DNA of 64,000 bases, taken from Pseudomonadota bacterium (GTDB lineage: Bacteria; Pseudomonadota; Gammaproteobacteria; Steroidobacterales; Rariloculaceae). The stretch lies in the NCBI GenBank assembly GCA_036337035.1, contig JAYZFC010000002.1, positions 115,051-179,050 on the forward strand, read 5' to 3'. The notes under the pieces were generated by a model that saw only the letters and a program-made list of their open reading frames with translations, was not told the DNA's origin and did no database searches. Positions 11,171-24,211 of this stretch are shown piece by piece. Position numbers and translations under genes: made by a program. Numbering within the stretch: the stretch's first letter is position 1; each line of letters starts with the position of its first letter.

Positions 11171-12317
11171 TAAATTAGATATATTTTCTAAGAATAAACT
11201 ATCAGAATTAGATAAAGATCTTCTGTTAAGAGAATTATTATATTCAGATAGATTAAATAATTCTAAAATCAAAATTAATAGAGATAAGTTTGTTTCCTTT
11301 GCATGTAATGACTATCTTGGCTTATCTCACCATCCAGAACTAATAAAAATAAACAACAATGTTACAAAAAAATATGGTTTAGGTGCTGGTAGCTCTAGAC
11401 TAGTATCAGGAAATAGTTCTCTCTATAAAAAACTAGAATCTAAACTGGCAAAAATAAAAAATACTGAGGATGCAATAGTTTTTGGAAGTGGCTACTTAGC
11501 AAATATAGGCACTATCCCAGTATTGATGGGAGAAAAAGACCTTATTCTTATAGATGAGCTATCTCACTCCTGTTTATTTTCAGGATCATACCTAGCAAAA
11601 AGCAAATTAATAAAATTTAGACATAATAATGTTTCTGATGTAAAAAAAATATTAGAAAAAAACAGAACAAAGTACGAAAAATGTTTATTAATTACGGAAG
11701 GTGTTTTCAGTATGGAGGGAGATCAGGCTCCATTAGCTGAGTTATTAGACTTAGTTAATTCTTATGACACATGGATGATGGTTGATGACGCACATGGATT
11801 TGGAGTTGTTAATGAAGGTAAAGGTTCTAATTTCATTAATAATGATTTTCTACCAATACCAATACAAATGGGTACTCTATCAAAATCTATAGGAACATAT
11901 GGCGGCTATGTCTGCTCAAGTAAACCTGTTATAGATTTAATTAGAAATAGAGCTAGGAGTCTAATTTATACAACTGGCCTTCCACCTGGTATTATTGGCG
12001 CCTCAATTAAAGCCTTAGAAATTATTGATAATGACCATAAACTTGTCAAAAAACCAATCATAGCCTCAACATATTTTACCAGATTGCTTAATTTGAAGAA
12101 GCCGAAAAGTGCGATAGTGCCAATTATATTAGGATCAGAAAGAAAAGTTCTAAATTTGAGTAAAATTCTTATGGAAAACGGCTTCTTAGTTGGTGCAATC
12201 AGGCCTCCTACTGTTCCAAAAAATACAGCAAGAATTAGATGTTCCTTTAATGCTAATCATAAAATGAAAGATATTGAAAAAATAGTATCAATTATTAAAA
12301 AGAGTGGCTATGGGTAA
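11151..12317 (+). CDS. bioF: 8-amino-7-oxononanoate synthase
   Basis: FACNDYLGL, GAGSSRLVSG, EGVFSMEGD, DDAHG, GTLSK, AIRPPTVP; upstream of bioD. Confidence 0.93.
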   Translation: MKMLLNSKLDIFSKNKLSELDKDLLLRELLYSDRLNNSKIKINRDKFVSFACNDYLGLSHHPELIKINNNVTKKYGLGAGSSRLVSGNSSLYKKLESKLAKIKNTEDAIVFGSGYLANIGTIPVLMGEKDLILIDELSHSCLFSGSYLAKSKLIKFRHNNVSDVKKILEKNRTKYEKCLLITEGVFSMEGDQAPLAELLDLVNSYDTWMMVDDAHGFGVVNEGKGSNFINNDFLPIPIQMGTLSKSIGTYGGYVCSSKPVIDLIRNRARSLIYTTGLPPGIIGASIKALEIIDNDHKLVKKPIIASTYFTRLLNLKKPKSAIVPIILGSERKVLNLSKILMENGFLVGAIRPPTVPKNTARIRCSFNANHKMKDIEKIVSIIKKSGYG

Positions 12318-12981
12318 TATATTCATAACATCTTCAGGAACAGAAATAGGTAAAACATTTATAACAACTACTCTACTAAGTGAATTAAAAAAATTAGAGT
12401 ACAATACTAATGCACTAAAACCGGTAGCGACAGGCTTTGATGAAAAAGACATTCTTAAATCTGATAGTGCACTATTGTTACAAGCTATGGGCCTAAAAGT
12501 AAATATAGAAAATATAAAAAAAATTACTCCTTGGAGGTATAAAAAACCATTATCGCCAAATATTACATCTAAATTAGAAAATAAACCTATTGTATTTGAT
12601 GAGCTAGTTAAATTTAGTCAATCTCAAAAAAATGTAGATATTACTCTAATAGAGGGTATTGGAGGAGTAATGGTGCCAATAAATAATGAGCATACTGTAA
12701 TAGATTGGATTGAAGCTATAGAAGTACCAGTAATATTAGTTGTTGGTAGCTACTTAGGCTCATTAAGTCATTCATTAACTGCTATTAAATGCCTTATATC
12801 AAAAAAAATTAAAATAATTGGCATTATTATTAATGAATCAGAAAATCAACCCATGTCTCAAGAAGAAACTGCTAGTACTATAGAAAAATTTACTCAATCT
12901 ATACCAATTATTATTTTTCCAAAAGTTAAAAAAGGAGTAAAAATTCCAAGTCTATTACCATTAATCAAAAAATACTTATAA
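12310..12981 (+). CDS. bioD: Dethiobiotin synthase
   Basis: FITSSGTEIGKT P-loop, KPVATG, IEGIGG, LGSLSH; ATG at 12310 preferred over GTG at 12304. Confidence 0.93.
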   Translation: MGNIFITSSGTEIGKTFITTTLLSELKKLEYNTNALKPVATGFDEKDILKSDSALLLQAMGLKVNIENIKKITPWRYKKPLSPNITSKLENKPIVFDELVKFSQSQKNVDITLIEGIGGVMVPINNEHTVIDWIEAIEVPVILVVGSYLGSLSHSLTAIKCLISKKIKIIGIIINESENQPMSQEETASTIEKFTQSIPIIIFPKVKKGVKIPSLLPLIKKYL

Positions 12982-13005: not shown

Positions 13006-14013
13006 CTAAGTTATTAAAGATGGAAGAGCCACAAAAGTTCCGCCATTTCTCTGGCACAAAGCTCTCATTAAAATAGCAAATCTTGCTGAAGATAGAAGTT
13101 CTCCATTAGTTACTTCATAGTATACTGGAAATGCAACTGCATGAATTCTTACTCTTCTCTGACCATCATCTCCTAACTTATTCCTTCTATCAACTTCTCT
13201 TACTACAGCATTAATAGATCCCGAGGCAAAGTCATCGCTATAAACATATAGGCTAATTTTCTTATCTGGATCATAAAAAGACCTTATAGCTTCAATAATA
13301 CCTTCTCTTGGGCTTGAGTTTGAAAATGCTGTCCAGTTTCTTAAACCATCAATTATAGATTCACGCCTTGCTTGTGAGTCAGGAATCCATTCATTTCTAT
13401 AACTCTTAAACATATATTCACCCATATCATTAAAGATTTGAATCCCCTTAACCTCTGGATAGACCTCAAGCGTTTCTCTTATCTGTTGCTGCACTCTTGG
13501 CCAAGCATATCGTTGCATACTGCCAGAAGTATCCACAATAAAAATAATATATTCACTATCAACAGGAATTCCTCCTACCTTATAGTCATCTGGATCTGGC
13601 TTGAAGTCAGATAGAAGCCTCTGCATCTCTTCTGTTAGCCTTTGCTTAGCAAGAGCAAGTCTTCCTGCAAGATCTGAAGCCTCCTCAGCATCATTCTGCG
13701 TTGCTAAAAAATCTGATCTAATTCGAACTAGCTGATCTTGAAGCTCATTGATTTGAAGCTTATCTATATCAACCTGATTAGTAGTAAAAACTATCTCTCG
13801 CTCTATACTTTCTATCTCACCAACAATCTCTTCTAACTCTTGTTCATACTTTACAATTAAACCTTCTAGCTCAATATGACTTTCTTCTAATCTAATCGGT
13901 TCAAAAATTTTGGTTAAAACTAAAAGAAGAATTATGGCACCAAAACCACAACAAATTACATCTAAGAACGATAGACTTCCAGACTCAACTTCTCTTCTGT
14001 ACCTTCTTCTCAT
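13006..14013 (-). CDS. ExbD-like TM anchor + coiled coil + VWA domain protein
   Basis: N-terminal SLSFLDVICCGFGAIILLLV; long heptad region; IIFIVDTSGSM (MIDAS DxSxS); LYVYSDD; ATG at 14013 overlaps the upstream TGA (ATGA). Confidence 0.8.
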   Translation of the reverse strand: MRRRYRREVESGSLSFLDVICCGFGAIILLLVLTKIFEPIRLEESHIELEGLIVKYEQELEEIVGEIESIEREIVFTTNQVDIDKLQINELQDQLVRIRSDFLATQNDAEEASDLAGRLALAKQRLTEEMQRLLSDFKPDPDDYKVGGIPVDSEYIIFIVDTSGSMQRYAWPRVQQQIRETLEVYPEVKGIQIFNDMGEYMFKSYRNEWIPDSQARRESIIDGLRNWTAFSNSSPREGIIEAIRSFYDPDKKISLYVYSDDFASGSINAVVREVDRRNKLGDDGQRRVRIHAVAFPVYYEVTNGELLSSARFAILMRALCQRNGGTFVALPSLIT

Positions 14014-15101
14014 GGCCAATCCTCAGATGGAGCCATCATAGATCCACCAGTATTTAAAGCCATCCACCAATATGCTGGCGCTGCTTGGGGATCTCCTTCC
14101 ATAGCATATAAAATTACATTAACAGGAACATTAAATGGTAATGTTCTTGCAGCACGATTAAAGTGATTTTGTCTTTCTTTACCAGTGACTCCTGCCCGAT
14201 TTGGTAAAATCTCACCCATTGTTGGTAAGCCATCGACTAAAAGATAGATATTGTCAGGCTTTGGCTCCAATGGCCGAAGCATTGAGAAGGCAGCGTGAAG
14301 GCTTGTAGGACCTTCAGGTACTGTCGAAGATAGTACGCTTACAGCCTCTTCTAATTTACTACCATCAGTAACTGTCAACCATTCGCTTTCAGTATCTTGA
14401 ATTAAAGACCAGCCTTTATCATTAAAAGCAAATATTTGAAACTGCGTTCCTGGTGTTATTTGTGTCGTAAGCCAATCTAAAGTTTGAACAACCTGTTTCC
14501 ATTTTGGAGCTATAAGTTGTTGGTCTCTTGACATATTTCGTCTTCTTAAAATATTTACTATTGTTCTATCTAACATACTTGTTGAAGCATCAACCAAAAT
14601 AACGATTCTTTCTCCACCCATTCTAAGACCAGTAAGATACTGCCTATTTCCATCTCCATTGAAACTTCTAATTCTATTCCCTGCAACTTCTGGAGTTATA
14701 CTTTCTGCTGATAGTCTTTTAGATTCCTCTTCTAATGTAGCAAGCTCAATATTTAAATCTTTAATTAGCTCTTCTTGTGCAGAATTTTCTGAAGAAAGCT
14801 TACCAAACTCTTCTTGAGTGAGATTAACTTCAGAAACAATTTCATCTTTAACGCCCCTTAGAATTGCCCATTCTTCAATTAATTCTGATAAATCCTGTTT
14901 TGTTTGAAGAAGATTTTTCTTTCCAGTCGTAACTCTTAACTCCATTCTATTTACTTCACTTGCTCTATCATTTAATAAAACTTCGCTTCTTAAATCTACA
15001 TTAGCATTTACAATCATAAAAAAAAGAATTACTGCTCCAAAACCACAAGTCATAGCATCCAAGAATGATAATGAAAAAACATTTAATTTCTTTCTTGCCA
15101 T
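14010..15101 (-). CDS. ExbD-like TM anchor + coiled coil + VWA domain protein (paralog)
   Basis: SLSFLDAMTCGFGAVILFF; coiled coil; VILVDASTSM MIDAS; GPTSL; IYLLVDGLPT. Confidence 0.8.
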   Translation of the reverse strand: MARKKLNVFSLSFLDAMTCGFGAVILFFMIVNANVDLRSEVLLNDRASEVNRMELRVTTGKKNLLQTKQDLSELIEEWAILRGVKDEIVSEVNLTQEEFGKLSSENSAQEELIKDLNIELATLEEESKRLSAESITPEVAGNRIRSFNGDGNRQYLTGLRMGGERIVILVDASTSMLDRTIVNILRRRNMSRDQQLIAPKWKQVVQTLDWLTTQITPGTQFQIFAFNDKGWSLIQDTESEWLTVTDGSKLEEAVSVLSSTVPEGPTSLHAAFSMLRPLEPKPDNIYLLVDGLPTMGEILPNRAGVTGKERQNHFNRAARTLPFNVPVNVILYAMEGDPQAAPAYWWMALNTGGSMMAPSEDWP

Positions 15102-15112
15102 AACTAATCCAT

Positions 15113-16144
15113 TTAATTATTTTTAAAAGACATTATATTCAAAAGCTTTATCTCATTTTTATCAAAATCCAGCATACCTTGTTCAAAAAACTTCAGAGCA
15201 TTGAACGCTTCATAGCCAAACTCTAATGAGTGTACAAAAGAATCATCATTATTATCAAATAACTTAGTCATATTTGGAATTTTTGATAGACTGCTAGAGA
15301 GAAAAAACTGTTTCTTTGACGCAGATCTCGAGGCATATGTATTAATTAAATCCGAAATGCCATTATAAAAATAAGATGTTGAATTTAGCAATTGATCCCT
15401 ATGAATTTCAATAGATAGCATTTTACTGCCATTAGATAATTCCATATTGAAATAATCATTATTATCCATTTCTTCTAGCCAATTAGGTAAAGATTTTTGA
15501 AGCTCATATTCACTATCAGCAGAATAGAGTGGGTCAAATCTAGTCTTCAATATAAATATTTCAGCAATTCTATTACTCCATTCTTTCTCCAAATTAGAAA
15601 TTCCTGAAAAATCTAAAGAATTACTTTCTAATACCTCTCTATTTAAATCTTGATCAATCATTGATGATATAAAAACTTGGTTTAGCCCAATATCTAAATA
15701 TAATAATTGATCCTCATATAATAAATTATCATTAACCATTAATGCTGGATTAACCATTCCTAAAACTTTGATCTTGCACTCATTCGCTACACCAAGTAGT
15801 AATCCTAACTGATAGTTAGTATAATGAGTGGGAGGTATTAAAATAATATTTTCTTCGCCGCTAAGATATTTTTTACAAATATTATTTAATTGGATAAATG
15901 CTATTTCTGCATTACTAGAGAAATCTCCTAAATTTTGTATCACTTTATTTTTTTCAAGATTTAATTTATCCCAAAAAGAGTTAATAACAAGATGAGGGGA
16001 AGCGCTTCTTCTTTTATATGCATCAAGACCAGTAATAATCTCATCGCCATTTATTAAGGCGTATCCAGGCTCACAGGCCAGAACTTTAGATCTATTTGCA
16101 ACTAATATATTTGAGTCGTTAATATGTATTGCTATATTTTTCAA
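15113..16144 (-). CDS. Hypothetical cytoplasmic protein, probable actin/Hsp70-like fold
   Basis: IAIHINDSNILVA resembles a degenerate phosphate-1 strand and LYLDIGLNQV the phosphate-2 motif; no signal peptide or TM helix. Confidence 0.5.
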   Translation of the reverse strand: MKNIAIHINDSNILVANRSKVLACEPGYALINGDEIITGLDAYKRRSASPHLVINSFWDKLNLEKNKVIQNLGDFSSNAEIAFIQLNNICKKYLSGEENIILIPPTHYTNYQLGLLLGVANECKIKVLGMVNPALMVNDNLLYEDQLLYLDIGLNQVFISSMIDQDLNREVLESNSLDFSGISNLEKEWSNRIAEIFILKTRFDPLYSADSEYELQKSLPNWLEEMDNNDYFNMELSNGSKMLSIEIHRDQLLNSTSYFYNGISDLINTYASRSASKKQFFLSSSLSKIPNMTKLFDNNDDSFVHSLEFGYEAFNALKFFEQGMLDFDKNEIKLLNIMSFKNN

Positions 16145-16160
16145 ATCTTCACTTTTAATT

Positions 16161-16964
16161 TTATTTATTTTGAGAATGCATGTGGCGAATTACCTTATGA
16201 TCAATATAACTCTGAGTATCAAAAATAAGACGCTCTTGAAGAGACTGTAATTGATGAACTAAAAACATAACTACTATAGAAATTAACAATGCAATAAAAG
16301 TTGAATTAAAAGCAGTTCCTAGACTTTGAGTCACGCCTGCTATATCCCCATCAACTGCGCGATGAGCTTGGCCAAGAGCTTCTCCGATACCCCTCACAGT
16401 TCCAATAAATCCCACTGAAGGAATAGCCCAAGCTATATATCTAATCATAGATAATTCTGATTCTAATTTTTCACCCTCAGACTCACATAAAGTATTAGTA
16501 ACTGATGAAACATCCTGAACATTCCTTGTTGAGCCAAATCTCTCAAGTGACGCTAACAAGATCCTTGATAAAAGCATTTCTCTTGATTGATCTGGAAGTG
16601 ATTCAACTATTCGTGAATACTGTCTAGTATCATCAGGTAAAATTTTATCTCCATCATTAATTGGAACTAAATTTTCTTTTAAAAAATTTTTTTCATTAAT
16701 AAGTCTTGCAGCCTTATATCCCATTATAGAAAAGGCCCAAAACATGAGAACAATACATGCCTCTTGCTCAAAATCCTTTATTAATACCCAAACAGATCTC
16801 TCTACTGTATAGTTCTCATCTTCTTGTATTGCTAAGGCCTGTTCAGATAAAGCATCAGCAGCTCTTGGGCGAATATTAGTAACATATATAGCATGAATAA
16901 TAATAATTGAGATAATTAGGGCAAAAATCTGGTATAAGAATTCATTTGGCAATCTTATCTTCAT
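16161..16964 (-). CDS. MotA/TolQ/ExbB proton channel family protein
   Basis: AIPSVGFIGTVRGI and SLGTAFNSTFIALLISIV hairpin signature; two extra N-terminal TM helices. Confidence 0.9.
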   Translation of the reverse strand: MKIRLPNEFLYQIFALIISIIIIHAIYVTNIRPRAADALSEQALAIQEDENYTVERSVWVLIKDFEQEACIVLMFWAFSIMGYKAARLINEKNFLKENLVPINDGDKILPDDTRQYSRIVESLPDQSREMLLSRILLASLERFGSTRNVQDVSSVTNTLCESEGEKLESELSMIRYIAWAIPSVGFIGTVRGIGEALGQAHRAVDGDIAGVTQSLGTAFNSTFIALLISIVVMFLVHQLQSLQERLIFDTQSYIDHKVIRHMHSQNK

Positions 16965-16985
16965 TTTTTTTCTCCAAAAAAAAAA

Positions 16986-17180
16986 TTAAATATTTACTGG
17001 AAAAGTCACTTCCTCATCTGCAGAAATTTCTTCACTAGGAGTAAAAATTTCGTCAAGAGGTCTCGTATCATCTTCTTCTGAGGATTCTGATATTTCATTT
17101 TCAACTAAATCATCCTGACTAAAAGATAATGATATAAACAGTATCCAAAGACTAATAAATAAAAAAAACTTCAAAATCAT
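16986..17180 (-). CDS. Small exported acidic protein
   Basis: Signal peptide, then acidic tract and FTPSEEISADEEVTFPVNI; tightly embedded in the operon on the same strand. Confidence 0.7.
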   Translation of the reverse strand: MILKFFLFISLWILFISLSFSQDDLVENEISESSEEDDTRPLDEIFTPSEEISADEEVTFPVNI

Positions 17181-17214
17181 TAAGTAAATTCCAAAATAAA
17201 TTACATTACATATC

Positions 17215-19635
17215 TTATTCTAAATTACGCGCGATCCTAAAACCAAGATCTTCTCTTGCATTATTCTCATAATATCTAAAAGAAAGTCTCAAATCTGTAA
17301 TAGTTGCGCTTTTCCAGCTAGATCCTCTAATGACATGAAAGCTTCCTTCCTCTGGACCCAATGGATCAATATAAGTGATGTCATTATTCAATACTGGTAT
17401 CTCCCAATAATCATGAATCCACTCTGCAACATTCCCACCTAGATCAAATATACCAAAATTATTGGCAGGAAAACTTCCAGGAGGTGCTAAAACTTGAAAA
17501 CTATCATTATAAGTAACTAGAGAAGGAGTTATGAGCTTATTAGACGAAATATCCGCAAAATTTCCTGATCTATCTGGTGGTGGTAAATTATTGCCCCAAG
17601 AATAAATCATTGGTGATTCGACTTGGGAGAATTTTGCAGCAAGTGCCCATTCTGCTTCAGTTGGTAGACGATATCCATTTCTTAAGGGGATAACAGCTGT
17701 CCAGATCCCATTATCCTCTTCATAAACTGGCTGCAATCCATCACGAATACTTAACCAATTTAAAAATTCTACAGCCTCTTCCCAAGTAAGCCTAACAACA
17801 GGGTATTCATCTAGATTGAGAGATATTCCTGAATATTCACCAGAATCATGGCTTTGTTTGAATTGTCTATATTCAAAATTAGTTACTTCCTTTGTTCCTA
17901 GATAAAAGGCTTTACTAATTTTTACTGATCGAAGCGTTTCATTTGATCTGCGGCCCTGCTCTCGTCTTGAAGAACCCATTTGAAAATCTCGGGGTGGTAT
18001 TAAAACTAAATTTTGACCTAATGAAGTAATAATAGTCTTCTCATAACCAGATCCTGTAATTGGATCTAATATCTCAAGGTCAATATCGATATTGCTTTTA
18101 TATCCTGGAATTGGAACTATATCCATAAACTCACTCTTATATCCATCTTGCCTTATTTCAATTTTATGATTTATTGACATCAACTCAATTTCAAGTGGTG
18201 TACTGCCAATATTATTCCCATCAATAAATACTTGAGAAATGCTAGGATTACTAGAAATTGAGACTAGTCCAAGTAGAGGAGTTAATCTATAAGAAAGTTG
18301 ATTATCAATCCCGCCTTCAATGGGAACTAATTCAGTAATTCCTTGATATCCTGGTTTTGATAGTGATATCTCATAATCATCTTTAGGAGGCAAATTAATA
18401 CTTATGGGGCTTCTGCCAACAAAATTTCCATTTATATTGATTACAACATCATTAGGTTCTGTTGCTATCTCTAGCACTCCTTTAGCCTCTTCTAATTCTA
18501 TTAAAGGAAGTGACTGAGATTTATTAGCAGAAATAAATATCCTATCGCTCCATTGATTATATCCACTTAAATCTAATGAAAGGAGATGTTCACCAGAAAC
18601 TACTTCTAATTTAATTGGAGTAATACCCATGAATTGACTATCTAAAGAAACACTAGCACCAATAGGCTCGCTTTTTATTTCTACCTCCGACCAATTAGGA
18701 ACCAGATTAAAAGAAAATTCTTGTCTATTTCCTCCGCCGAGTATTTCTATTTCCTCAATTTTTGGTAAATAGCGAGAGGATAATATTTCCAAGGAGTGGG
18801 TCCCTGTTGGTATCTCTAGATTAAAAATAGGAGATATACCGATATCATTTCCGTTAAGGCTAATAAGTGATTCAACCGCTGGATTTGTTTTTAAAGTTAT
18901 AATTCCAGGAAGACGATCCATACTTAAAAAAAATGATTGATCCTGAGAATCATCAACAATTATTTCAGTATCTAGATCATAATATTGATTTAAAGCAGCT
19001 TCAATTTTATGTTTTCCTGGCTGAAGCAAGTACCTATCACCAATCTTAAATTTTAAGAATGTATCTGGAATATAAACAGAATCAGGTTGTGGTTCTATAA
19101 CTAACTCAATAGACTTAGATGTAAAAGCAAACCAAGCCAAACAACCTAAAAAAAAGAAAGATAAATATAAAAAAATATTAGATTTGCTTATAGCGCTATT
19201 TTTATTGCTTCTAACATGGCCTATATCTGAACTAATATTAATAGGCTCTACTATAATATCGTCTACCTTATTTTTATATGGGCTGCTCTCAACATTCCTT
19301 CTATATTCTTTAAAAATACTAATATCTAAATAAAGAGAATGATTTTCTAATGAAGCATAAATTTTATTTTTTCCAAATGAAATAATATCTTTATTATTTA
19401 TAGATATAGCTTCAGTTACTTTAACATCATTAATTAATAAGTTTTTAGTTTCGCTATTAGGCTGAATAAAAAAATTATTTTCTATAAATCCAATTTGAAA
19501 AAATCCATTCACATTTTCGAGATATATATCATGCAGATCTTTATCTCCTATCTCAATTGGAAGATTTTCAGAATCAAATATTAGCTGTTTTCCTTTATAA
19601 AGAAGGACAATATTTCTATCTATTTTTTTATTCAT
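17215..19635 (-). CDS. FHA-like + TM + PEGA repeats + FGE-sulfatase (SUMF1/PvdO/GldK-like) domain protein
   Basis: About four PEGA repeats (SEPIGASVSLD..GITP..GY); C-terminal FQMGS, EVTN, RLPTEAEW, DLGGNVAEW, RGSSW, GFRIAR; single TM near residues 155-172. Confidence 0.85.
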   Translation of the reverse strand: MNKKIDRNIVLLYKGKQLIFDSENLPIEIGDKDLHDIYLENVNGFFQIGFIENNFFIQPNSETKNLLINDVKVTEAISINNKDIISFGKNKIYASLENHSLYLDISIFKEYRRNVESSPYKNKVDDIIVEPINISSDIGHVRSNKNSAISKSNIFLYLSFFFLGCLAWFAFTSKSIELVIEPQPDSVYIPDTFLKFKIGDRYLLQPGKHKIEAALNQYYDLDTEIIVDDSQDQSFFLSMDRLPGIITLKTNPAVESLISLNGNDIGISPIFNLEIPTGTHSLEILSSRYLPKIEEIEILGGGNRQEFSFNLVPNWSEVEIKSEPIGASVSLDSQFMGITPIKLEVVSGEHLLSLDLSGYNQWSDRIFISANKSQSLPLIELEEAKGVLEIATEPNDVVININGNFVGRSPISINLPPKDDYEISLSKPGYQGITELVPIEGGIDNQLSYRLTPLLGLVSISSNPSISQVFIDGNNIGSTPLEIELMSINHKIEIRQDGYKSEFMDIVPIPGYKSNIDIDLEILDPITGSGYEKTIITSLGQNLVLIPPRDFQMGSSRREQGRRSNETLRSVKISKAFYLGTKEVTNFEYRQFKQSHDSGEYSGISLNLDEYPVVRLTWEEAVEFLNWLSIRDGLQPVYEEDNGIWTAVIPLRNGYRLPTEAEWALAAKFSQVESPMIYSWGNNLPPPDRSGNFADISSNKLITPSLVTYNDSFQVLAPPGSFPANNFGIFDLGGNVAEWIHDYWEIPVLNNDITYIDPLGPEEGSFHVIRGSSWKSATITDLRLSFRYYENNAREDLGFRIARNLE

Positions 19636-19645
19636 TCTTGATAAA

Positions 19646-21157
19646 TTAAATTTCTTCTGTACATGAAACTAAAATTTGCATATTTTCTTTTTCTGGCAAT
19701 ACATCAAAATTTATTCTTACATCTCTGTAGCCATTACGATTTCCTACAATAGTGTAATTACCGGGTCTTAGCTTGATCGTAATACTATCAAATCTACCTA
19801 ATGAACCTTTACGATATAAAATAGTATTGGTAAGACCATCTGAATTAATAACTATGTTAACTGGTGTAGAAGCAAGCTGAATTATTCTTTTTAGAGTATC
19901 TACTTGCTCGGTAATTCTTGTTCCAGCCTGATTTACAGATAATGCTTCTAATAATATTACTTCAGCTTGCTCTAACACCTCATCATCAAATAAAAATCTT
20001 GGATTTTCTATAAGATTATTTAGTTTCTTATCAAGATCATCTCTTAATCTTGATCTCATTAAACCATTTTTTGCAAACTCTAAATTAGGATCAGTTCCTA
20101 AAATTGCCTCATATTGACTAATTGCATTCTCCCACAATTCTCTCCTTTCAAAAGCAAAAGCTCGAGCTTCGACCAACAATATTTCATCAAGCTTCTGGCC
20201 TTGTTCTGCTTGTAAAATTCCTATTTTAGCCTCTTCTGAATTTGACCGCATTAATAATGCCTGACTAAAAAAATTATGGGCTTCATTAAAATCCTCTATT
20301 CCTAAAGATGAGTATCCATTAGATATTAAATTATCGAAAGTATTTTTCTCGATTGTCTCTAGAACTAAATTTAACTCATCTTTAGCCTGTTGCCATTCAG
20401 GATCTATTTCGAGAGCCTGCCTGTATAGCTCTGAAGAAGCTACATATTCTTCACTTAATTCCTTCTCTCTTGCTTGTTCAATAATCTCAAGAACTTCTGG
20501 TAAATTTTTAGCTCTAGCCAATCCATCCAAGGCAATAGAGTTATTCTCCTCAATCTTTAAAACTACCTCAAATTGATTACGAGCAGCTAGGTGATCGCCC
20601 ACATCTAGTGCGTTATTTCCATAACTAATAGAAGCCTGAACAATTTTACTAGCATTCTCTAATAACTCTTCTCCTAAGGCTATAGCTCTTTCATATGAGT
20701 TTATAGCATCCTGGAAATTATCAGAAAGAAAAGCATCATCACCAAAGCTTATTAAATCCAAATATATTAACCAATCATCATTAGCCCATATATCAGGAGA
20801 TAAAATACTAATCTTGCTTTGTTGGCCTATAATATCTGACAGTAATTTTTCTGCAAAAGATCTTAGACGAATAATTTCTTCTTCTGTATAAAATTCTTCT
20901 GATTCATCTACTAAGCTATCTTTTAATATGCTGTTAGACAGAACTTTCTCAGTAGAATCATTATCGTTAGAAATAATTTTCGGTAAAAAGAAAAATACAA
21001 AAAATAATAACGCTAAAAGAAAAAATATAGCTAAATAATATTTATAATAAATAGCTAATGAATTGTCTTTAGTAGATAAACTATTTTTACCTATACTAGG
21101 CTTAACTTCGATGATTGATTTATTTCGAAGGTTCTTTTTTTTAGAGTTATTCTTCAA
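19646..21157 (-). CDS. Single-pass membrane protein with TPR repeats and C-terminal PEGA-like domain
   Basis: N-terminal TM; TPR-like YERAIALG, YRQALEIDPEWQQA, YEAILGTDPNLEFA; C-terminal LRPGNYTIVGNRNGYRDVR. Confidence 0.75.
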   Translation of the reverse strand: MKNNSKKKNLRNKSIIEVKPSIGKNSLSTKDNSLAIYYKYYLAIFFLLALLFFVFFFLPKIISNDNDSTEKVLSNSILKDSLVDESEEFYTEEEIIRLRSFAEKLLSDIIGQQSKISILSPDIWANDDWLIYLDLISFGDDAFLSDNFQDAINSYERAIALGEELLENASKIVQASISYGNNALDVGDHLAARNQFEVVLKIEENNSIALDGLARAKNLPEVLEIIEQAREKELSEEYVASSELYRQALEIDPEWQQAKDELNLVLETIEKNTFDNLISNGYSSLGIEDFNEAHNFFSQALLMRSNSEEAKIGILQAEQGQKLDEILLVEARAFAFERRELWENAISQYEAILGTDPNLEFAKNGLMRSRLRDDLDKKLNNLIENPRFLFDDEVLEQAEVILLEALSVNQAGTRITEQVDTLKRIIQLASTPVNIVINSDGLTNTILYRKGSLGRFDSITIKLRPGNYTIVGNRNGYRDVRINFDVLPEKENMQILVSCTEEI

Positions 21158-22382
21158 AATTATCTAAAGGATCAATAAATATATCAACATCTGACTCAAA
21201 ACCTGTCTCAGATTTATATAATTCTAACAAGAGATCCTTCCACTCCTGATATTGAGCATCAGCTGTCCCAGTTAAACGATGTTGAGTCCCCTCAATTTGA
21301 ATAACCATTGGCATCACCTCATCATCAAAACTTAGTGATAATTCCTCAAGTGTCTGGGTATGCAAGCGCTTCTCCTCTCTTCTTACTCCTGCAGACTTTA
21401 TCATTTCAACACCTGTATACATCATAGTATCTCTTATCACCCTGCTATTAAAATCACCATCACTATTGGAGTCATAAACTATAGAAGCAACTATAGTTGC
21501 TACTCCAATACCAGTTCTCCACCTACTTGACGATTCTAGCTCTTTTATGGCAATTGACTCTTCTCTAGAATATTCTCTCCATCCATCATATGACTCTGTT
21601 GAATTATTATAAAAACCAACATAGTGCTCATTAAGAGTCTCAATAAATGCATGCTCTCTATCTCTAGCTCTCTGAATTCTATTAAACTGTGGATCATCTA
21701 CAGAAGGCAAGCGATTAATTGATATTCTACCTCTACTATTGTTTAAATATCCCTGAAAAGACTCCGGACTAATTTCTTCTGCAAACCTTAATTCTGTAAT
21801 TCTCCTAATATTTTTACCCTCTCCTGGCTCAAGCCTTACCTGTAGAACAGCAAGATCATTTGCAATTCTATTAAAAATATCTTGATATGGGTCTTTATCA
21901 GGATAAATATTTCTATTGAAAGCTCCAGCTGCAGTAAACATTTGATAATTTCTCTTAAGCCAAGTTCTGCCTGAAGCATCTACGGCATGAATATCTAGAC
22001 TAACCCTATCACCATCTGAATGTAATATTTTTCCCATTATCTCAAGATCTGCAATGAGTGATCTATCTGGAGTCACCCAAACTGAACCCCAATAACCACT
22101 ATTTTGGAGCGTATCCCTAAGATGAGTAGCCATATATCTAGATTCTGTTCTTCTTATATGAACAAATGTACCTTCATTAATAAGCTCTTCAAGTAATTCC
22201 TTATCTATTTCTCCTTCAGGAACACCAGAGTCAAATAATACAATCGATACATCTAATAAATCTTCCTCATTTATACTGTTGATAGAAGAGTTTAATGAAA
22301 CTTGATGAGGTATACGAACTTCATTTGATCCGCAACCAAACAAAAATAATAAAAAAAGGAATAATGTCGTTCTATGTATCAT
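21147..22382 (-). CDS. Uncharacterised lipoprotein
   Basis: Lipobox LFGC after a hydrophobic stretch; 411 aa; overlaps the downstream gene. Confidence 0.7.
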   Translation of the reverse strand: MIHRTTLFLFLLFLFGCGSNEVRIPHQVSLNSSINSINEEDLLDVSIVLFDSGVPEGEIDKELLEELINEGTFVHIRRTESRYMATHLRDTLQNSGYWGSVWVTPDRSLIADLEIMGKILHSDGDRVSLDIHAVDASGRTWLKRNYQMFTAAGAFNRNIYPDKDPYQDIFNRIANDLAVLQVRLEPGEGKNIRRITELRFAEEISPESFQGYLNNSRGRISINRLPSVDDPQFNRIQRARDREHAFIETLNEHYVGFYNNSTESYDGWREYSREESIAIKELESSSRWRTGIGVATIVASIVYDSNSDGDFNSRVIRDTMMYTGVEMIKSAGVRREEKRLHTQTLEELSLSFDDEVMPMVIQIEGTQHRLTGTADAQYQEWKDLLLELYKSETGFESDVDIFIDPLDNFEE

Positions 22383-22387
22383 ATTTA

Positions 22388-23425
22388 CTACTGCCTAAGT
22401 ATTATGTTCTTATACTGGTTGTACTCATCCCACAAAGCAGCACGTAAAAATGGATCTTCCTCTTCTGTAGCTGCTTCACATAGTTGTCTTGCAACCTTAT
22501 CCTCGTCTTCACAACCCTCAACTGTATTATTAATATCATCTTCATCATTTCCAGAAATACCTATAACTGGAGAAGCGCCTCTTGATTCACTACTACCTTC
22601 TTGTCCCACTCCTGGTATTCCTGAATTAGCTGGTATCTGGGAAGATGGATCTGAAGAGCTACCTATTGAACTTGCTGAACCAAAAGCTTGATCTGCTGCT
22701 GAACCTATCCCAGAGCTTGCTATTGCCTCTCTTTCGGCACCTATAATTGAATCAAACTCTTCTAAAGATTGGTTAAAAACATCTTCAGCACTAGAGCCTA
22801 TAGTACCTATTCCACTATTTGATTCGCCAAACATTCCTGAATCTGGATTTGATGGATATTGTCCTTGCATGCCTTGTTGACCTTGCTGGCCTTGCATGCC
22901 TTGCTGGCCTTGTTGATTACCTTGTTGACCTTGCATGCCTTGTTGACCTTGTTGACCTTGCTGGCCTTGCATGCCTTGCTGGCCTTGTTGGCCTTGTTGA
23001 CCTTGCATGCCTTGCTGGCCTTGTTGACCTTGCATACCTTGTTGACCTTGCATGCCTTGCTGGCCTTGTTGGCCTTGCATGCCTTGCTGGCCTTGTTGAC
23101 CTTGCATGCCTTGCATACCTTGTTGGCCTTGTTGGCCTTGTTGACCTTGTTGGCCTTGTTGACCTTGTTGGCCTTGTTGACCTTGTTGGCCTTGTTGACC
23201 TTGCATGCCTTGTTGGCCTTGTTGACCTTGTTGACCTTGCATGCCTTGTTGGCCTTGTTGACCTTGTTGGCCTTGTTGACCTTGCATGCCTTGTTGGCCT
23301 TGTTGGCCACCTTGTTGGCCACCTTGTTGGCCCTGACTCTGGCTTGGCATCTGCTGTGTTGCGCAACCAAATATTGCAAATAAACAGATAAATACAAAGA
23401 GATTGATATTCTTATACATATTCAT
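22388..23425 (-). CDS. Lipoprotein with collagen-like (Gly-Gln-Gln/Gly-Met-Gln)n repeat
   Basis: Lipobox IFGC; about 50 Gly-X-Y triplets; C-terminal helical domain [28 protein letters not shown]. Confidence 0.8.
22860..23332. repeat. Coding 9-bp tandem repeat (CCTTGYTGR / CCTTGCATR units)
   Basis: About 50 contiguous 9-nt units; variation lies mostly at synonymous positions of the minus-strand GQQ/GMQ frame. Confidence 0.95.
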
Positions 23426-23566: not shown

Positions 23567-24211
23567 TTATCTTTGCCTAACGCTACTATCTACTCCGGTA
23601 TAACGGATGCTTTTCCCATTTTCATCAAGAAATTCTAATGACTGATTAAAAAAGCTTGGAGGATAGCCCTCAGGAGATCTTCCTTCAAGGATATATAAAT
23701 AATTATTATTAATATTATCTTGATTTGAATGGAAATAAATTCCAATATGAGAGATTGAATTATCTGCATTTATTGTGTGCAATTGATGCCCATTTATAAA
23801 ATTAATATGTCCCCAAGCATCATGGGTTATATCTACTCCTCTTGATCTAATATTGCTAGCAGCATAGGCAATAGAACCTTTTCGATCATAAATTGCTAAT
23901 CCAGGGTAATCATCTGTGCCTAGAACATCTGAAAGTTGGCTATATGCCACACTTTCATCTAAATTATAATTAACAGCAGTTAATGAATAAAAGTGATTAT
24001 TATGCTCTGCTGTATAGACTCTACCTGGATAAAAACCTCCCCATTCTGAAGCATATATTATTTCCTCTATCTCTGGTTCATTAGGAAAGTTGACTGAAAA
24101 AAACCATTCTTCATCAGAATAATTAAACCAATCCTGTGATAAAGATTTTCCGAAAGCAAAAAGAGTAATCAGAAAAGCTGTAAAAAAAATATTTATCTTA
24201 ATCATAATCAA
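23567..24211 (-). CDS. Exported hypothetical protein
   Basis: Signal peptide; FSVNFPNEP...YSLTAVNY; overlaps the stop of the upstream PLP enzyme. Confidence 0.65.
   Translation of the reverse strand: MIMIKINIFFTAFLITLFAFGKSLSQDWFNYSDEEWFFSVNFPNEPEIEEIIYASEWGGFYPGRVYTAEHNNHFYSLTAVNYNLDESVAYSQLSDVLGTDDYPGLAIYDRKGSIAYAASNIRSRGVDITHDAWGHINFINGHQLHTINADNSISHIGIYFHSNQDNINNNYLYILEGRSPEGYPPSFFNQSLEFLDENGKSIRYTGVDSSVRQR

What the first reader, a model, noticed from the sequence alone, without database searches (positions are those of the whole stretch)
13006..23425. Nine-gene operon encoding a candidate undescribed ion-motive-force-driven envelope machine
Seen: nine co-oriented genes with gaps of at most about 35 nt or overlaps, in the order collagen-like lipoprotein, lipoprotein, TM-TPR protein, FHA-TM-PEGA-FGE protein, small exported peptide, MotA/TolQ/ExbB protein, actin/Hsp70-like protein and two TM-coiled-coil-VWA proteins. 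Known: MotAB, ExbBD, TolQR, AglRQS and GldLM are ion-driven motors that power flagella, Ton/Tol, myxobacterial gliding and T9SS; non-catalytic FGE-type domains occur in GldK/GldJ, and FHA, TPR and VWA proteins occur in the Agl-Glt gliding system. The operon has no TonB, TolA/TolB/Pal, flagellar or receptor genes. Inference: a distinct cytoplasm-to-outer-membrane motor complex for adhesion, surface motility, export or envelope remodelling.
Basis: partly seen in the sequence, partly recalled or inferred. Interest (0 to 1): 0.88.

Follow-up and report, generated by a model that had tools for sequence, protein, structure and literature searches.

The report
Conserved motor operon with VWA stalks
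Nine tightly packed genes encode a membrane ion-driven motor whose two rotor subunits carry long stalks with adhesive VWA heads, plus a conserved set of envelope partners; the motor core was predicted in print in 2025, while the full gene set and its function remain undescribed.

Summary
Nine minus-strand ORFs (13006-23425) lie 5-34 nt apart or overlap by 10-11 nt, and the domains are largely as described. The gene set is strongly co-conserved. The MotA/TolQ/ExbB gene is found in 41 of 41 genomes of the order. Of 54 loci from several phyla with enough flank, 47 hold seven core genes and 44 keep the window's order.

The two TM-coiled-coil-VWA proteins are paralogs. Each has an invariant Asp in its TM helix and a DxSxS motif, and no ExbD/TolR/MotB gene sits in the operon. 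This fits a 5:2 motor with a heterodimeric VWA-headed "B" subunit. That core was predicted in Mol Biol Evol 2025 (msaf138), function unknown, so it is not undescribed.

New here:
- The full conserved set.
- A small secreted protein with a near-invariant C-terminal 20-mer.
- An Hsp70-NBD-fold protein (AF2 pLDDT 92) that carries an FHA tail in most relatives.
- A Hanks kinase in about half of the loci. The window's streamlined genome lacks both the kinase and the tail.

Best reading: a proton-driven force transducer acting on an outer-membrane lipoprotein and PEGA/FGE/TPR scaffold, serving envelope maintenance. No 5:2 model could be run.

The parts
22388..23425 (-). g1: lipoprotein (lipobox IFGC). 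Long (GQQ/GMQ)n G-x-y repeat, then a conserved C-terminal ~40-aa motif (..[29 protein letters not shown]..).
   Evidence: Pfam Collagen E 1e-21; the C-terminal motif is conserved in all 48 relatives listed, and the G-x-y repeat is not; in-frame 3- and 12-nt length variants of the repeat in seawater metagenome contigs.
21147..22382 (-). g2: 411-aa lipoprotein (lipobox LFGC) of no known family.
   Evidence: no Pfam or NCBIfam family; no PDB sequence relative; Atlas: unnamed lipoprotein clusters only. Present in 52 of 54 full-flank loci.
19646..21157 (-). g3: bitopic inner-membrane protein, one TM (44-62), with periplasmic TPR repeats and an unassigned C-terminal domain.
   Evidence: TPR_2 E 4e-9; TPR_Slam E 2e-4, below cut-off; TM. 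Present in 53 of 54 loci.
17215..19635 (-). g4: weak FHA-like cytoplasmic N-terminus, one TM (154-172), at least 4 PEGA domains, and a C-terminal FGE-sulfatase-type domain without conserved cysteines.
   Evidence: PEGA 54/54, FGE 54/54; no invariant or near-invariant Cys; weak FHA. It is the only FGE-family gene in the genome.
16986..17180 (-). g5: 64-aa secreted protein with a signal peptide, an acidic variable linker and a near-invariant C-terminal motif F-x-P-[ST]-E-x-[IV]-x-x-D-x-x-[IV]-x-F-P-x-[DN]-I-COOH.
   Evidence: motif in 53 of 61 loci by strict pattern, near variants in others; invariant E50, P61, I64; only one such ORF in the own genome.
16161..16964 (-). g6: MotA/TolQ/ExbB-family channel subunit. 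It is a distinct subfamily, below the TolQ, ExbB and MotA equivalog cut-offs.
   Evidence: PF01618 E 9e-15; TolQ 30.8 bits against cut-off 221; invariant T189 in GFIGTVRGI and T222 in AFNSTF; 41 of 41 genomes of the order.
15113..16144 (-). g7: cytoplasmic protein with an Hsp70 nucleotide-binding-domain (ASKHA) fold and atypical phosphate loops. It lacks the C-terminal FHA domain that most orthologs carry.
   Evidence: fold; DnaK NBD E 7e-4; FHA E 1e-6 for the tail of relatives; FHA in 25 of 40; 343 and 348 aa in this genus against about 440-480 elsewhere; motifs.
14010..15101 (-). g8: TM helix with invariant Asp15, a ~100-aa coiled coil, and a VWA domain with DxSxS (171-175), T266 and D290.
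   Evidence: invariants; VWA_2 in 58 of 62; coiled-coil hits for residues ~40-150; paralog of g9.
13006..14019 (-). g9: paralog of g8. TM helix with invariant Asp20, a coiled coil, and a VWA-type domain with DxSxS (163-167). It is the most conserved protein of the set (49-81% identity across phyla).
   Evidence: identities; VWA_2 19/62, VWA 16/62; Atlas: all named neighbours are VWA, score 0.92.

Best explanation
The operon encodes one envelope-spanning machine.

Engine: a pentamer of the MotA/TolQ/ExbB-family protein g6. The two paralogs g8 and g9 insert their Asp-bearing TM helices into it as a heterodimeric 'B' subunit. In place of a TolR/ExbD/MotB periplasmic domain, each carries a ~100-residue coiled-coil stalk (about 15 nm if continuous) tipped by a metal-site (MIDAS-type) VWA head.

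Output: proton flow turns or cycles this stalk. The VWA heads engage acidic ligands in a periplasmic scaffold built from g4 (PEGA repeats plus a non-catalytic FGE-type binding domain), g3 (TPR), the small secreted protein g5 (through its invariant C-terminal peptide) and the two lipoproteins g1 and g2.

Cytoplasmic side: the Hsp70-fold protein g7 and the FHA-like head of g4 form a control platform. In fuller versions of the system this platform is switched by a Hanks Ser/Thr kinase and an FHA tail on g7. The window's streamlined genome has lost both, so the motor probably runs unregulated.

Most likely role: a housekeeping, Tol-Pal-like use of proton-motive force to hold or remodel links between outer membrane, peptidoglycan and inner membrane. 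Motility and multi-substrate secretion are less likely.

Shown: the gene set, its conservation, the domains, the paralogy and the invariant residues. Inferred: stoichiometry, contacts, the direction of force and the physiological role.
For: Motor:
- g6 is a PF01618 member with invariant Thr189 and Thr222.
- g8 and g9 each have an invariant TM Asp (D15, D20) in a ..LSFLDxxxCGFGA.. helix. By eye this resembles the ..INLTPMLDVVFIML.. helix of the genome's own ExbD proteins.
- No PF02472 gene lies in the operon. The genome's only two ExbD genes sit in a separate ExbB-ExbB-ExbD-ExbD-TonB cluster.
- g8 and g9 are paralogs over their full length and occur together in 53 of 54 loci.
- The same architecture was modelled as a 5:2 complex by AF3 for relatives in Mol Biol Evol 2025 msaf138.

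One machine:
- g6 is found in 41 of 41 genomes of the order (the tally includes unpublished G039).
- The order g2..g9 is kept in 7 of 8 loci from other genera and families; the eighth is cut by a contig end.
- Of 54 loci with at least 9.4 kb upstream of g9, the counts are g8 53, g4 53, g3 53, g2 52, g6 51, g7 50 and g1 48. All seven core genes occur in 47, in the window's order in 44. Record titles range over Gammaproteobacteria, Desulfobacterales, Acidobacteriota, Kiritimatiellia and Isosphaeraceae.
- The g5 motif is present in 53 of 61 loci.

Housekeeping role:
- The operon is retained in a 1.22-Mb genome, taking about 0.85% of it.
- It is present throughout the order.
- There is no plasmid copy in 72,556 records.
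- No other ORF in the genome bears the g5 tag.
- No FliG was found (the genome is 90.6% complete).
- An OmpA-type peptidoglycan-binding gene follows g9 in 14 of 68 loci.
- PEGA is treated as a peptidoglycan-associating domain in eLife 2020 e52696 (passages).

Regulation:
- A kinase lies between g2 and g3 in 25 of 54 loci, and in 7 of the 8 order-level loci.
- An FHA tail is present on g7 in 25 of 40 relatives.
Against: - No complex was folded, so no contact is shown.
- The g9 profile shows no detectable homology to ExbD (hhalign E 0.24). The 'B subunit' reading therefore rests on one helix motif and on context.
- VWA assignment for the window's own g9 is indirect: no Pfam hit for the window copy, and family-level, Atlas and paralogy evidence only.
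- Across the class the system is patchy: 14 of 201 genomes, one per family, including G000 and unpublished G079. A universal housekeeping role is therefore unlikely, and Tol-Pal coexists with it. TolB is over cut-off in 35 of 41 relatives, including the same genus; its absence from G000 is probably an assembly gap.
- Kinase, FHA, VWA and FGE domains are also typical of signalling and conflict systems.
- Lipoprotein sorting to the outer membrane is inferred from the residue after the Cys, by the recalled E. coli rule.
- Expression is not shown. Only four short contigs of one RNA library lie on g8, g4 and g2, and that library may hold DNA.
Confidence: 0.45

Rival explanations
1. Envelope-damage or contact sensor. 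The periplasmic FGE, VWA and lipoprotein parts detect a change at the outer membrane and signal inward through the kinase, FHA and Hsp70-like platform. This would resemble TagQ/TagR-PpkA-Fha1 of the Pseudomonas H1-T6SS, with the motor setting tension or acting as the sensing element.
For: The domain types match that pathway. In Nat Commun 2026 17:11187 the FGE domain of TagR is described as the protein-binding module that links the lipoprotein TagQ to the periplasmic domain of the kinase PpkA (passages only). A kinase is present in 25 of 54 loci, and an FHA tail on g7 in 25 of 40 relatives.
Against: The window and its genus keep all nine genes but have no kinase (nothing over cut-off) and no FHA tail, so phospho-signalling is accessory. 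No output gene (T6SS, regulator, effector) is conserved next to the operon.
Confidence: 0.15
2. Export or surface display device. The motor powers transfer of the lipoprotein g1 (or of g5) to the cell surface. This would be comparable to T9SS GldKLMN or, for lipoproteins, to Slam.
For: The FGE-type domain gives a partial GldK/PorK hit (TIGR03525 E 8e-30). There is a weak TPR_Slam hit in g3 (E 2e-4). There are two lipoproteins. The g1 repeat resembles surface collagen-like adhesins (SclB, Lcl hits). g5 ends in an invariant tag.
Against: No outer-membrane barrel, secretin or translocon gene is conserved in or beside the operon. Only g5 itself carries the tag in the genome. The GldK score is 104.5 bits against a cut-off of 350, and there are no GldL/M/N hits. 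The collagen-like repeat is not conserved.
Confidence: 0.12
3. Surface adhesion or gliding machine related in principle to Agl-Glt or Bacteroidota gliding.
For: The 2025 paper also floats gliding for the other vWA family.
Against: The system is universal in an order that includes 1.2-Mb planktonic genomes, and the stretch is held in 19 DNA runs labelled marine, seawater or marine plankton metagenome, from at least 12 studies. No TolR-type AglQ/S homologs, no Glt-type barrels and no conserved adhesin are present.
Confidence: 0.08
4. Anti-phage or conflict system of the Zorya kind, with a MotA-like sensor of envelope breach.
For: A weak ZorA hit for g6 (PADLOC E 0.0017). VWA, FGE, kinase and FHA domains are common in conflict systems. 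The distribution across the class is patchy.
Against: No effector (nuclease, protease, TIR and the like) and no ZorB/C/D. Gene order is fixed and identity is 49-81% across phyla. Present in 41 of 41 genomes of the order. No plasmid copy. Near-identical copies occur in independent seawater runs.
Confidence: 0.05
5. g8 and g9 are TonB/TolA-like transducers that dock on the outside of a motor whose true B subunit is encoded elsewhere.
For: A first vWA family with TonB-like topology exists. The genome has two ExbD genes elsewhere.
Against: The TM helices of g8 and g9 contain no His and carry an invariant Asp instead. The ExbD genes sit in their own complete ExbB/ExbD/TonB cluster. The 2025 paper separates the two families on exactly this criterion.
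Confidence: 0.05

Closest known systems
[quoted passage not shown]
   Same: A tolQ-like gene tightly linked to a heterologous pair of TM-tethered vWA genes. No tolR/exbD/motB. A TolR-like pore helix with a conserved Asp. A conserved Thr ring in the pentamer subunit. Spread over Proteobacteria and beyond. Function unknown.
   Different: The text I read treats only the three motor genes. Here six further genes (g1-g5, g7), an optional kinase and the g5 C-terminal motif are shown to be co-conserved. Direct sequence identity with the paper's Idiomarina seed could not be tested, because the text gives no accession and its supplements are closed.
Tol-Pal (TolQRA-TolB-Pal) and Ton (ExbBD-TonB)
   Same: A MotA/TolQ/ExbB-family channel with an Asp-bearing partner helix. 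Force is passed across the periplasm to outer-membrane lipoprotein partners. Housekeeping-type conservation within a lineage.
   Different: g6 scores far below the TolQ, ExbB and MotA equivalog cut-offs. The B subunit has no ExbD/TolR domain. There is no TolA/TonB, TolB or Pal. Tol-Pal and Ton coexist with it in relatives.
T9SS / gliding core GldKLMN (PorKLMN)
   Same: A 5:2-type motor whose B subunit reaches far into the periplasm towards an FGE-type (GldK/PorK-like) protein. Lipoproteins take part.
   Different: The FGE-type domain here ends a bitopic inner-membrane PEGA protein and is not an outer-membrane lipoprotein. GldK scores 104.5 bits against a cut-off of 350. There are no GldL/M/N or translocon genes.
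TagQRST-PpkA-PppA-Fha1 threonine-phosphorylation pathway of the P. aeruginosa H1-T6SS
   Same: An outer-membrane lipoprotein, an FGE-type binding protein, a periplasmic domain of a membrane protein (VWA in PpkA, by recall), a Hanks kinase and an FHA reader.
   Different: That pathway has no motor. Here the kinase is optional (25 of 54 loci), the VWA domains sit on the motor subunits, and no T6SS is linked.
PilMNOP alignment subcomplex of type IV pili (recalled, not tested)
   Same: An actin/Hsp70-fold cytoplasmic protein next to two paralogous bitopic proteins (TM, coiled coil, globular head) and lipoproteins.
   Different: No sequence relation was found. Here the bitopic pair carries a TM Asp and VWA heads and is coupled to a MotA-family gene. 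No secretin or pilus genes are in the operon.
Zorya (ZorAB)
   Same: A MotA-family pentamer used outside flagella, Ton and Tol.
   Different: There is only a weak ZorA hit (E 0.0017). There is no ZorB/C/D and no effector, and the conservation pattern is that of a core gene set.

Membership tests
MotA/TolQ/ExbB superfamily (PF01618) | Pfam domain over the gathering score | tested here: met
   g6 scores 55 bits against a cut-off of 22.9, E 9e-15.
MotA/TolQ/ExbB superfamily (PF01618) | Conserved Thr residues in the last two TM helices lining the pore (recalled for TolQ/ExbB/MotA; stated for the family) | tested here: met
   T189 and T222 are invariant in 23 of 23 sequences.
TolQ, ExbB or MotA proper (NCBIfam equivalogs) | Score over the equivalog cut-off | tested here: not met
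   TolQ 30.8 bits against 221; ExbB2 20.1 against 135; MotA1 16.1 against 304.
ExbD/TolR (PF02472) or MotB as B subunit | ExbD/TolR periplasmic domain or OmpA-type domain on the Asp-bearing TM protein | tested here: not met
   No PF02472 or OmpA hit in g8 or g9. hhalign of the g9 profile against the genome's own ExbD gives E 0.24. Only the TM-helix motif is alike.
TPH-vWA / TolQ-like motor family (msaf138) | tolQ-like gene adjacent, with no tolR/exbD/motB gene in the cluster | tested here: met
TPH-vWA / TolQ-like motor family (msaf138) | Heterologous pair of TM-tethered vWA proteins | tested here: met
   g8 and g9 are paralogs. VWA_2 hits in 58 of 62 and 19 of 62 family members. Both are present in 53 of 54 loci.
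TPH-vWA / TolQ-like motor family (msaf138) | Conserved Asp in the TM helix and no SHLS/His motif | tested here: met
   D15 (g8) and D20 (g9) are invariant in 62 sequences each. Neither window TM helix contains a His.
TPH-vWA / TolQ-like motor family (msaf138) | Predicted 5:2 assembly with Asp facing the Thr ring | not testable with these tools
   Complex prediction allows at most 6 chains and was unavailable.
TPH-vWA / TolQ-like motor family (msaf138) | Sequence relation to the paper's Idiomarina seed | not tested
Formylglycine-generating enzyme (catalytic FGE) | Pair of catalytic cysteines near the C-terminus (recalled) | tested here: not met
   The domain is present (E 3e-36), but no Cys is invariant or 90% conserved among 54 sequences. 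The window's C-terminal stretch has none.
GldK/PorK (T9SS ring lipoprotein) | Equivalog score, lipoprotein, GldL/M/N partners | tested here: not met
   104.5 bits against 350. g4 has an internal TM and no lipobox. There are no GldL/M/N hits.
Hsp70/actin (ASKHA) fold | Two-lobed NBD fold | tested here: met
   AF2 pLDDT 92. Foldseek hits to BiP, DnaK and Ssz1 NBDs at E about 1e-17, TM 0.67-0.76, identity 10-15%. The profile hits DnaK NBD at E 7e-4.
Hsp70/actin (ASKHA) fold | Canonical glycine-rich phosphate-1 and phosphate-2 loops (DxGTT, DxGGGT; recalled) | tested here: inconclusive
   D10 is invariant and D151 is at least 90% conserved, but the loops read NDAG and LDxxLHR in the family, and NDSN and LDIGLN in the window. 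ATPase activity is doubtful.
FHA domain (g4 N-terminus) | Pfam FHA over cut-off | tested here: inconclusive
   17.7 bits against 20.7 (E 0.0049). FHA in 5 of 40 relatives and YscD-type in 3 of 40. PDB FHA hits at E 0.04-0.9.
Zorya | ZorA with ZorB and ZorC/D or ZorE | tested here: not met
   Only ZorA at E 0.0017 for g6, and nothing else.

The most novel reading that the evidence does not exclude
The system is a fourth, independent way (besides Ton, Tol and Gld/Por) to deliver proton-motive force to the outer membrane. It would be a periplasmic 'winch' in which the rotating g8/g9 coiled-coil stalk uses its VWA metal sites to grip an acidic ligand. The ligand would be the invariant C-terminal peptide of g5, whose F-x-P-[ST]-E start resembles the C-x-P-x-R peptide that true FGE enzymes bind (recalled). 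That peptide could therefore be presented by the non-catalytic FGE pocket of g4, or the ligand could be the conserved acidic helix of lipoprotein g1. In this way the machine would do mechanical work on outer-membrane lipoproteins. In kinase-bearing species the winch would be licensed by Ser/Thr phosphorylation read by FHA domains on an Hsp70-fold clamp.
Probability: 0.2. Interest if true: 0.85.

Novelty: new variant of a known kind. Interest (0 to 1): 0.62.

Why it matters
Ion-driven 5:2 motors are the only known route by which diderm bacteria energise their outer membrane, and few kinds are understood (flagellar, Ton, Tol, gliding/T9SS, Agl, Zorya).

This locus belongs to a further kind, in which the rotor subunit itself carries a long stalk and a VWA head. 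It comes with a fixed set of at least six partners that no paper I could find discusses. The set is kept across several phyla and throughout an order of marine bacteria, down to a 1.2-Mb genome.

That gives a defined parts list for genetics and cryo-ET: the motor, a PEGA/FGE/TPR scaffold, two lipoproteins, a tagged mini-protein, an Hsp70-fold protein, and optional kinase/FHA control. It turns 'what do vWA motors do?' into a testable question.

Tried and rejected
Nothing was folded, so the g5-partner idea is untested.
- The single-sequence AF2 model of g7 was useless (pLDDT 32.6).
- The Atlas search for g2 gave only unnamed lipoprotein clusters.
- The g2 profile found nothing consistent in PDB sequences or Pfam.
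- g8 and g9 profiles against PDB sequences gave mainly coiled-coil hits; an integrin I-domain appeared only at E 0.78.
- hhalign of the g9 profile against ExbD gave no relation.
- A search for longer proteins carrying the g5 motif found none, which is weak evidence.
- The promoter and terminator scan was not above shuffles (40 found against 50.9 expected; 5 against 4.9).
- RNA evidence: one metatranscriptome run holds four short contigs on g8, g4 and g2 and nothing on the other genes. The tool warns that DNA may be in such a library, so neither expression nor silence is shown.
- No TolB or Pal was found in G000. I rejected this as evidence that the system replaces Tol-Pal, because the same-genus genome has TolB.
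- A second fold search (pdb_via_wide) was not accepted.
- Literature searches with no relevant hit.

Full report
**Observation.** Mechanical ORF listing gives nine minus-strand ORFs at exactly the coordinates reported, numbered g1 to g9 in the direction of transcription:

| Gene | Coordinates |
|---|---|
| g1 | 22388-23425 |
| g2 | 21147-22382 |
| g3 | 19646-21157 |
| g4 | 17215-19635 |
| g5 | 16986-17180 |
| g6 | 16161-16964 |
| g7 | 15113-16144 |
| g8 | 14010-15101 |
| g9 | 13006-14019 |

Successive genes are 5, 10, 34, 21, 16 and 11 nt apart, or overlap by 11 and 10 nt. Downstream on the other strand lie bioD, bioF and a phosphomannomutase. Upstream lie a 214-aa secreted protein and a Cys/Met-metabolism PLP enzyme. 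Neither neighbourhood is conserved with the set outside the order.

**Domains.**
- g1 is a lipoprotein with a (GQQ/GMQ)n repeat that scores as Collagen (E 1e-21).
- g2 is a lipoprotein of no family.
- g3 has one TM plus TPR repeats.
- g4 has one TM, at least four PEGA domains (E 2e-46) and an FGE-sulfatase-type domain (E 3e-36).
- g5 is a 64-aa protein with a signal peptide.
- g6 is a MotA_ExbB protein (E 9e-15).
- g8 has one TM, a coiled coil and a weak VWA_2 hit (E 0.007).
- g7 and g9 have no Pfam hit.

**Three labels needed more work.**
- g7 without an alignment folded badly (pLDDT 32.6). With 40 orthologs (A3) AF2 gave pLDDT 92 and pTM 0.91. All listed top Foldseek matches in the PDB were Hsp70 nucleotide-binding domains (BiP, DnaK, Ssz1; E about 1e-17, TM 0.67-0.76, 10-15% identity). 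The profile also hits the DnaK NBD by sequence (E 7e-4). 'Actin/Hsp70-like' is therefore right. The phosphate loops are atypical, however: NDAG and LDxxLHR in the family, NDSN and LDIGLN in the window. The best-conserved motif is family-specific (TRFDPLHxAxxEQ). ATPase activity is doubtful.
- g9 is a full-length paralog of g8 (hhalign 99.8%, E 6e-28). VWA_2 is hit by 58 of 62 g8 relatives and 19 of 62 g9 relatives. The nearest named Atlas clusters of the g9 head are all VWA (score 0.92, a lead only).
- The 'FHA' head of g4 is weak: 17.7 bits against a cut-off of 20.7. FHA is hit in 5 of 40 relatives and the YscD type in 3 of 40. PDB FHA domains appear only at E 0.04-0.9.

**Conservation.** The g6 protein is found in 41 of 41 genomes sampled from the window's order, covering 17 further families. 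Among genomes at least 90% complete the count is 31 of 31. Best-match identity is 39-91% (the tally includes unpublished G039). In eight loci cut from other genera and families, tblastn finds g2-g9 in the window's order in seven; the eighth is cut at a contig end.

The best 80 carry titles ranging over Gammaproteobacteria (Pseudomonadales, Woeseiaceae, Chromatiales, OM182), Desulfobacterales, Acidobacteriota (Vicinamibacteria, Holophagae, Thermoanaerobaculia, Sulfomarinibacter), Kiritimatiellia and Isosphaeraceae. g9 identity is 49-81%.

Of those 80, 54 have at least 9.4 kb upstream of g9. Their gene counts are below.

| Gene | Loci of 54 |
|---|---|
| g8 | 53 |
| g4 | 53 |
| g3 | 53 |
| g2 | 52 |
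| g6 | 51 |
| g7 | 50 |
| g1 | 48 |

All seven of g2, g3, g4, g6, g7, g8 and g9 occur in 47 loci, in the window's order in 44. The exceptions are as follows:
- In three loci a 40%-identical MotA gene sits after g9 instead.
- Two loci have no g6 hit.
- Three loci have no g7 hit.
- One locus lacks g2.
- One locus holds g9 alone.

Across the class the system is patchy: 14 of 201 genomes, one per family, including G000 and unpublished G079. No plasmid in 72,556 records has a g9 relative.

**The small gene g5 is real.** tblastn found it in few loci. An ORF between g4 and the next gene, however, ends in F-x-P-[ST]-E-x-[IV]-x-x-D-x-x-[IV]-x-F-P-x-[DN]-I-stop in 53 of 61 loci by a strict pattern. Several of the remaining eight show one-residue variants in the listing. 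Ahead of the motif lie a signal peptide and a variable acidic linker (A4: invariant E50, P61, I64). In the loci where the MotA gene has moved, g5 stays behind g4. In the window's own genome it is the only ORF with this ending, so the motif is not a sorting tag shared by many substrates.

**Parts missing from the window.**
- In relatives a 288-aa Hanks kinase (Pkinase E 3e-27) lies between g2 and g3 in 25 of 54 loci, and in 7 of the 8 order-level loci.
- Most g7 orthologs are about 440-480 aa, with a C-terminal FHA domain (25 of 40 by Pfam; lengths).
- The window's g7 (343 aa) and that of the same-genus genome (348 aa) lack the tail. The own genome has no kinase over cut-off.
- An OmpA/glycine-zipper protein follows g9 in 14 of 68 loci, and an unassigned 239-aa protein in 13 of 68.
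- The conserved part of g1 is only its last ~40 residues (..DDDIVARQLREAA..DPELR..LWEEY..YK). The collagen-like repeat is lineage-specific. It varies in length by in-frame 3- and 12-nt indels among seawater metagenome contigs.

**The motor.** g6 keeps invariant Thr189 (GFIGTVRGI) and Thr222 (AFNSTF) in 23 of 23 sequences. It scores far below the TolQ, ExbB and MotA equivalog cut-offs. g8 and g9 each have an invariant Asp (D15, D20) in a helix ..LSFLDxxxCGFGA.. among 62 sequences. There is no His in the window helices.

The genome's own ExbD proteins read ..INLTPMLDVVFIML.. at the same place. This is a likeness by eye only, since the g9 profile shows no statistical relation to ExbD. The only ExbD genes of the genome lie in a complete ExbB-ExbB-ExbD-ExbD-TonB cluster on another contig.

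Behind the helix come about 100 residues that match coiled coils, and then the VWA head. g8 carries invariant DxSxS plus T266 and D290, a full MIDAS set by the recalled canon. g9 carries DxSxS plus D262.

**What is already in print.** Full-text searches found one relevant paper: Mol Biol Evol 2025;42(6):msaf138. [quoted passage not shown] - It co-occurs tightly with tolQ homologs, without tolR/exbD.
- The vWA genes mostly come in heterologous pairs.
- They have a TolR-like transpore helix and a conserved Asp.
- AF3 places that Asp inside the Thr ring of the pentamer.
- The family is found mainly in Proteobacteria and Verrucomicrobia.
- Its function is unknown.

The window's g6, g8 and g9 meet every criterion I could test. 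The section does not mention PEGA, FGE or Hsp70 (0 occurrences) and does not discuss the other genes. Its Fig. 4c and supplementary figures, which I could not see, may draw them.

Two further papers were read as passages only:
- Nat Commun 2026 17:11187 describes the FGE domain of TagR as a protein-binding module joining lipoprotein TagQ to the periplasmic domain of kinase PpkA.
- eLife 2020 e52696 treats PEGA as peptidoglycan-associating and does not mention MotA, ExbB or TolQ.

**Mechanism.** I read the set as one machine. It has a g6 pentamer with a g8/g9 heterodimer in its pore, and a stalk of about 15 nm that carries two VWA heads towards the wall and outer membrane. It also has a periplasmic scaffold (g4 PEGA/FGE, g3 TPR, g5 peptide, lipoproteins g1 and g2) and a cytoplasmic platform (g7, the g4 head). 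In many species that platform is controlled by a kinase and FHA readers.

The following points favour a housekeeping, Tol-like envelope role over the other readings:
- The set is kept in a 1.22-Mb genome, where it takes about 0.85% of the DNA.
- It is present throughout the order.
- No translocon, adhesin or effector gene is conserved with it.
- Only g5 carries the C-terminal tag.
- No FliG was found (the genome is 90.6% complete).
- Peptidoglycan-linked domains occur in and beside the set.

Tol-Pal is not replaced. TolB is over cut-off in 35 of 41 relatives, including the same genus, and its absence from G000 is most likely an assembly gap.

Against a universal role stand the patchy spread across the class and the signalling flavour of the accessory parts. 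Stoichiometry, contacts and function are inferred. No complex could be folded.

**Presence in nature.** The stretch is held nearly unchanged in 19 DNA runs labelled marine, seawater or marine plankton metagenome, from at least 12 studies; one of them may be its source. Contigs of three runs cover all 30 bins with 0-3 differences per listed piece. One metatranscriptome run has four short contigs on g8, g4 and g2. This is not proof of transcription.

**Verdict.** The ten-part conserved system, its tagged mini-protein and its optional phospho-control are, as far as my searches reach, not in print, and its function is open.

Noticed in passing
window 22800-23400, both strands: Four further ORFs of 149-196 aa listed over the g1 repeat (22807-23397, 22819-23391, 22859-23383, 22917-23366) are low-complexity read-throughs of the (GQQ)n repeat in other frames. 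They are not genes.
   Followed up: partly
window 23261-23307: In-frame length variants (3 and 12 nt left out) of the G-x-y repeat of g1 in contigs of independent seawater metagenome runs. The repeat is polymorphic in nature.
   Followed up: no
G000:C4:35700-38240 (L104): A complete ExbB(long)-ExbB-ExbD-ExbD-TonB cluster holds the genome's only ExbD-family genes. No TolB or Pal was found in this 90.6%-complete assembly, although the same-genus genome has TolB.
   Followed up: partly
L024, L025, L028, L030, L032: In one gammaproteobacterial group the MotA-like gene is missing from its usual place. In three of the five loci a 40-42% identical MotA-family gene lies after g9 instead. g5 stays behind g4 in L028, L030 and L032.
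   Followed up: no
L013:5374-6183 (-), L032:11975-12703 (+) and 12 further loci: An OmpA-domain protein with a glycine zipper directly follows g9 in 14 of 68 loci, and an unassigned ~239-aa protein does so in 13 of 68. These are possible lineage-specific extra parts.
   Followed up: partly
L031, L054, L065, L069, L071, L082, L093: In these loci g6 is followed at once by g8, with no g7 (Hsp70-fold) hit. The cytoplasmic protein is therefore dispensable in some lineages.
   Followed up: no
window 9803-12981 (+) and 24208-25386 (-): The flanks hold a phosphomannomutase (CpsG-type), bioF, bioD and a Cys/Met-metabolism PLP enzyme. bioD lies 1-4 kb beyond g9 in the order-level and closest loci.
   Followed up: no
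window 23567-24211 (-): A 214-aa secreted protein of no family lies upstream of g1. It is not conserved with the set: one distant hit, in L031.
   Followed up: partly
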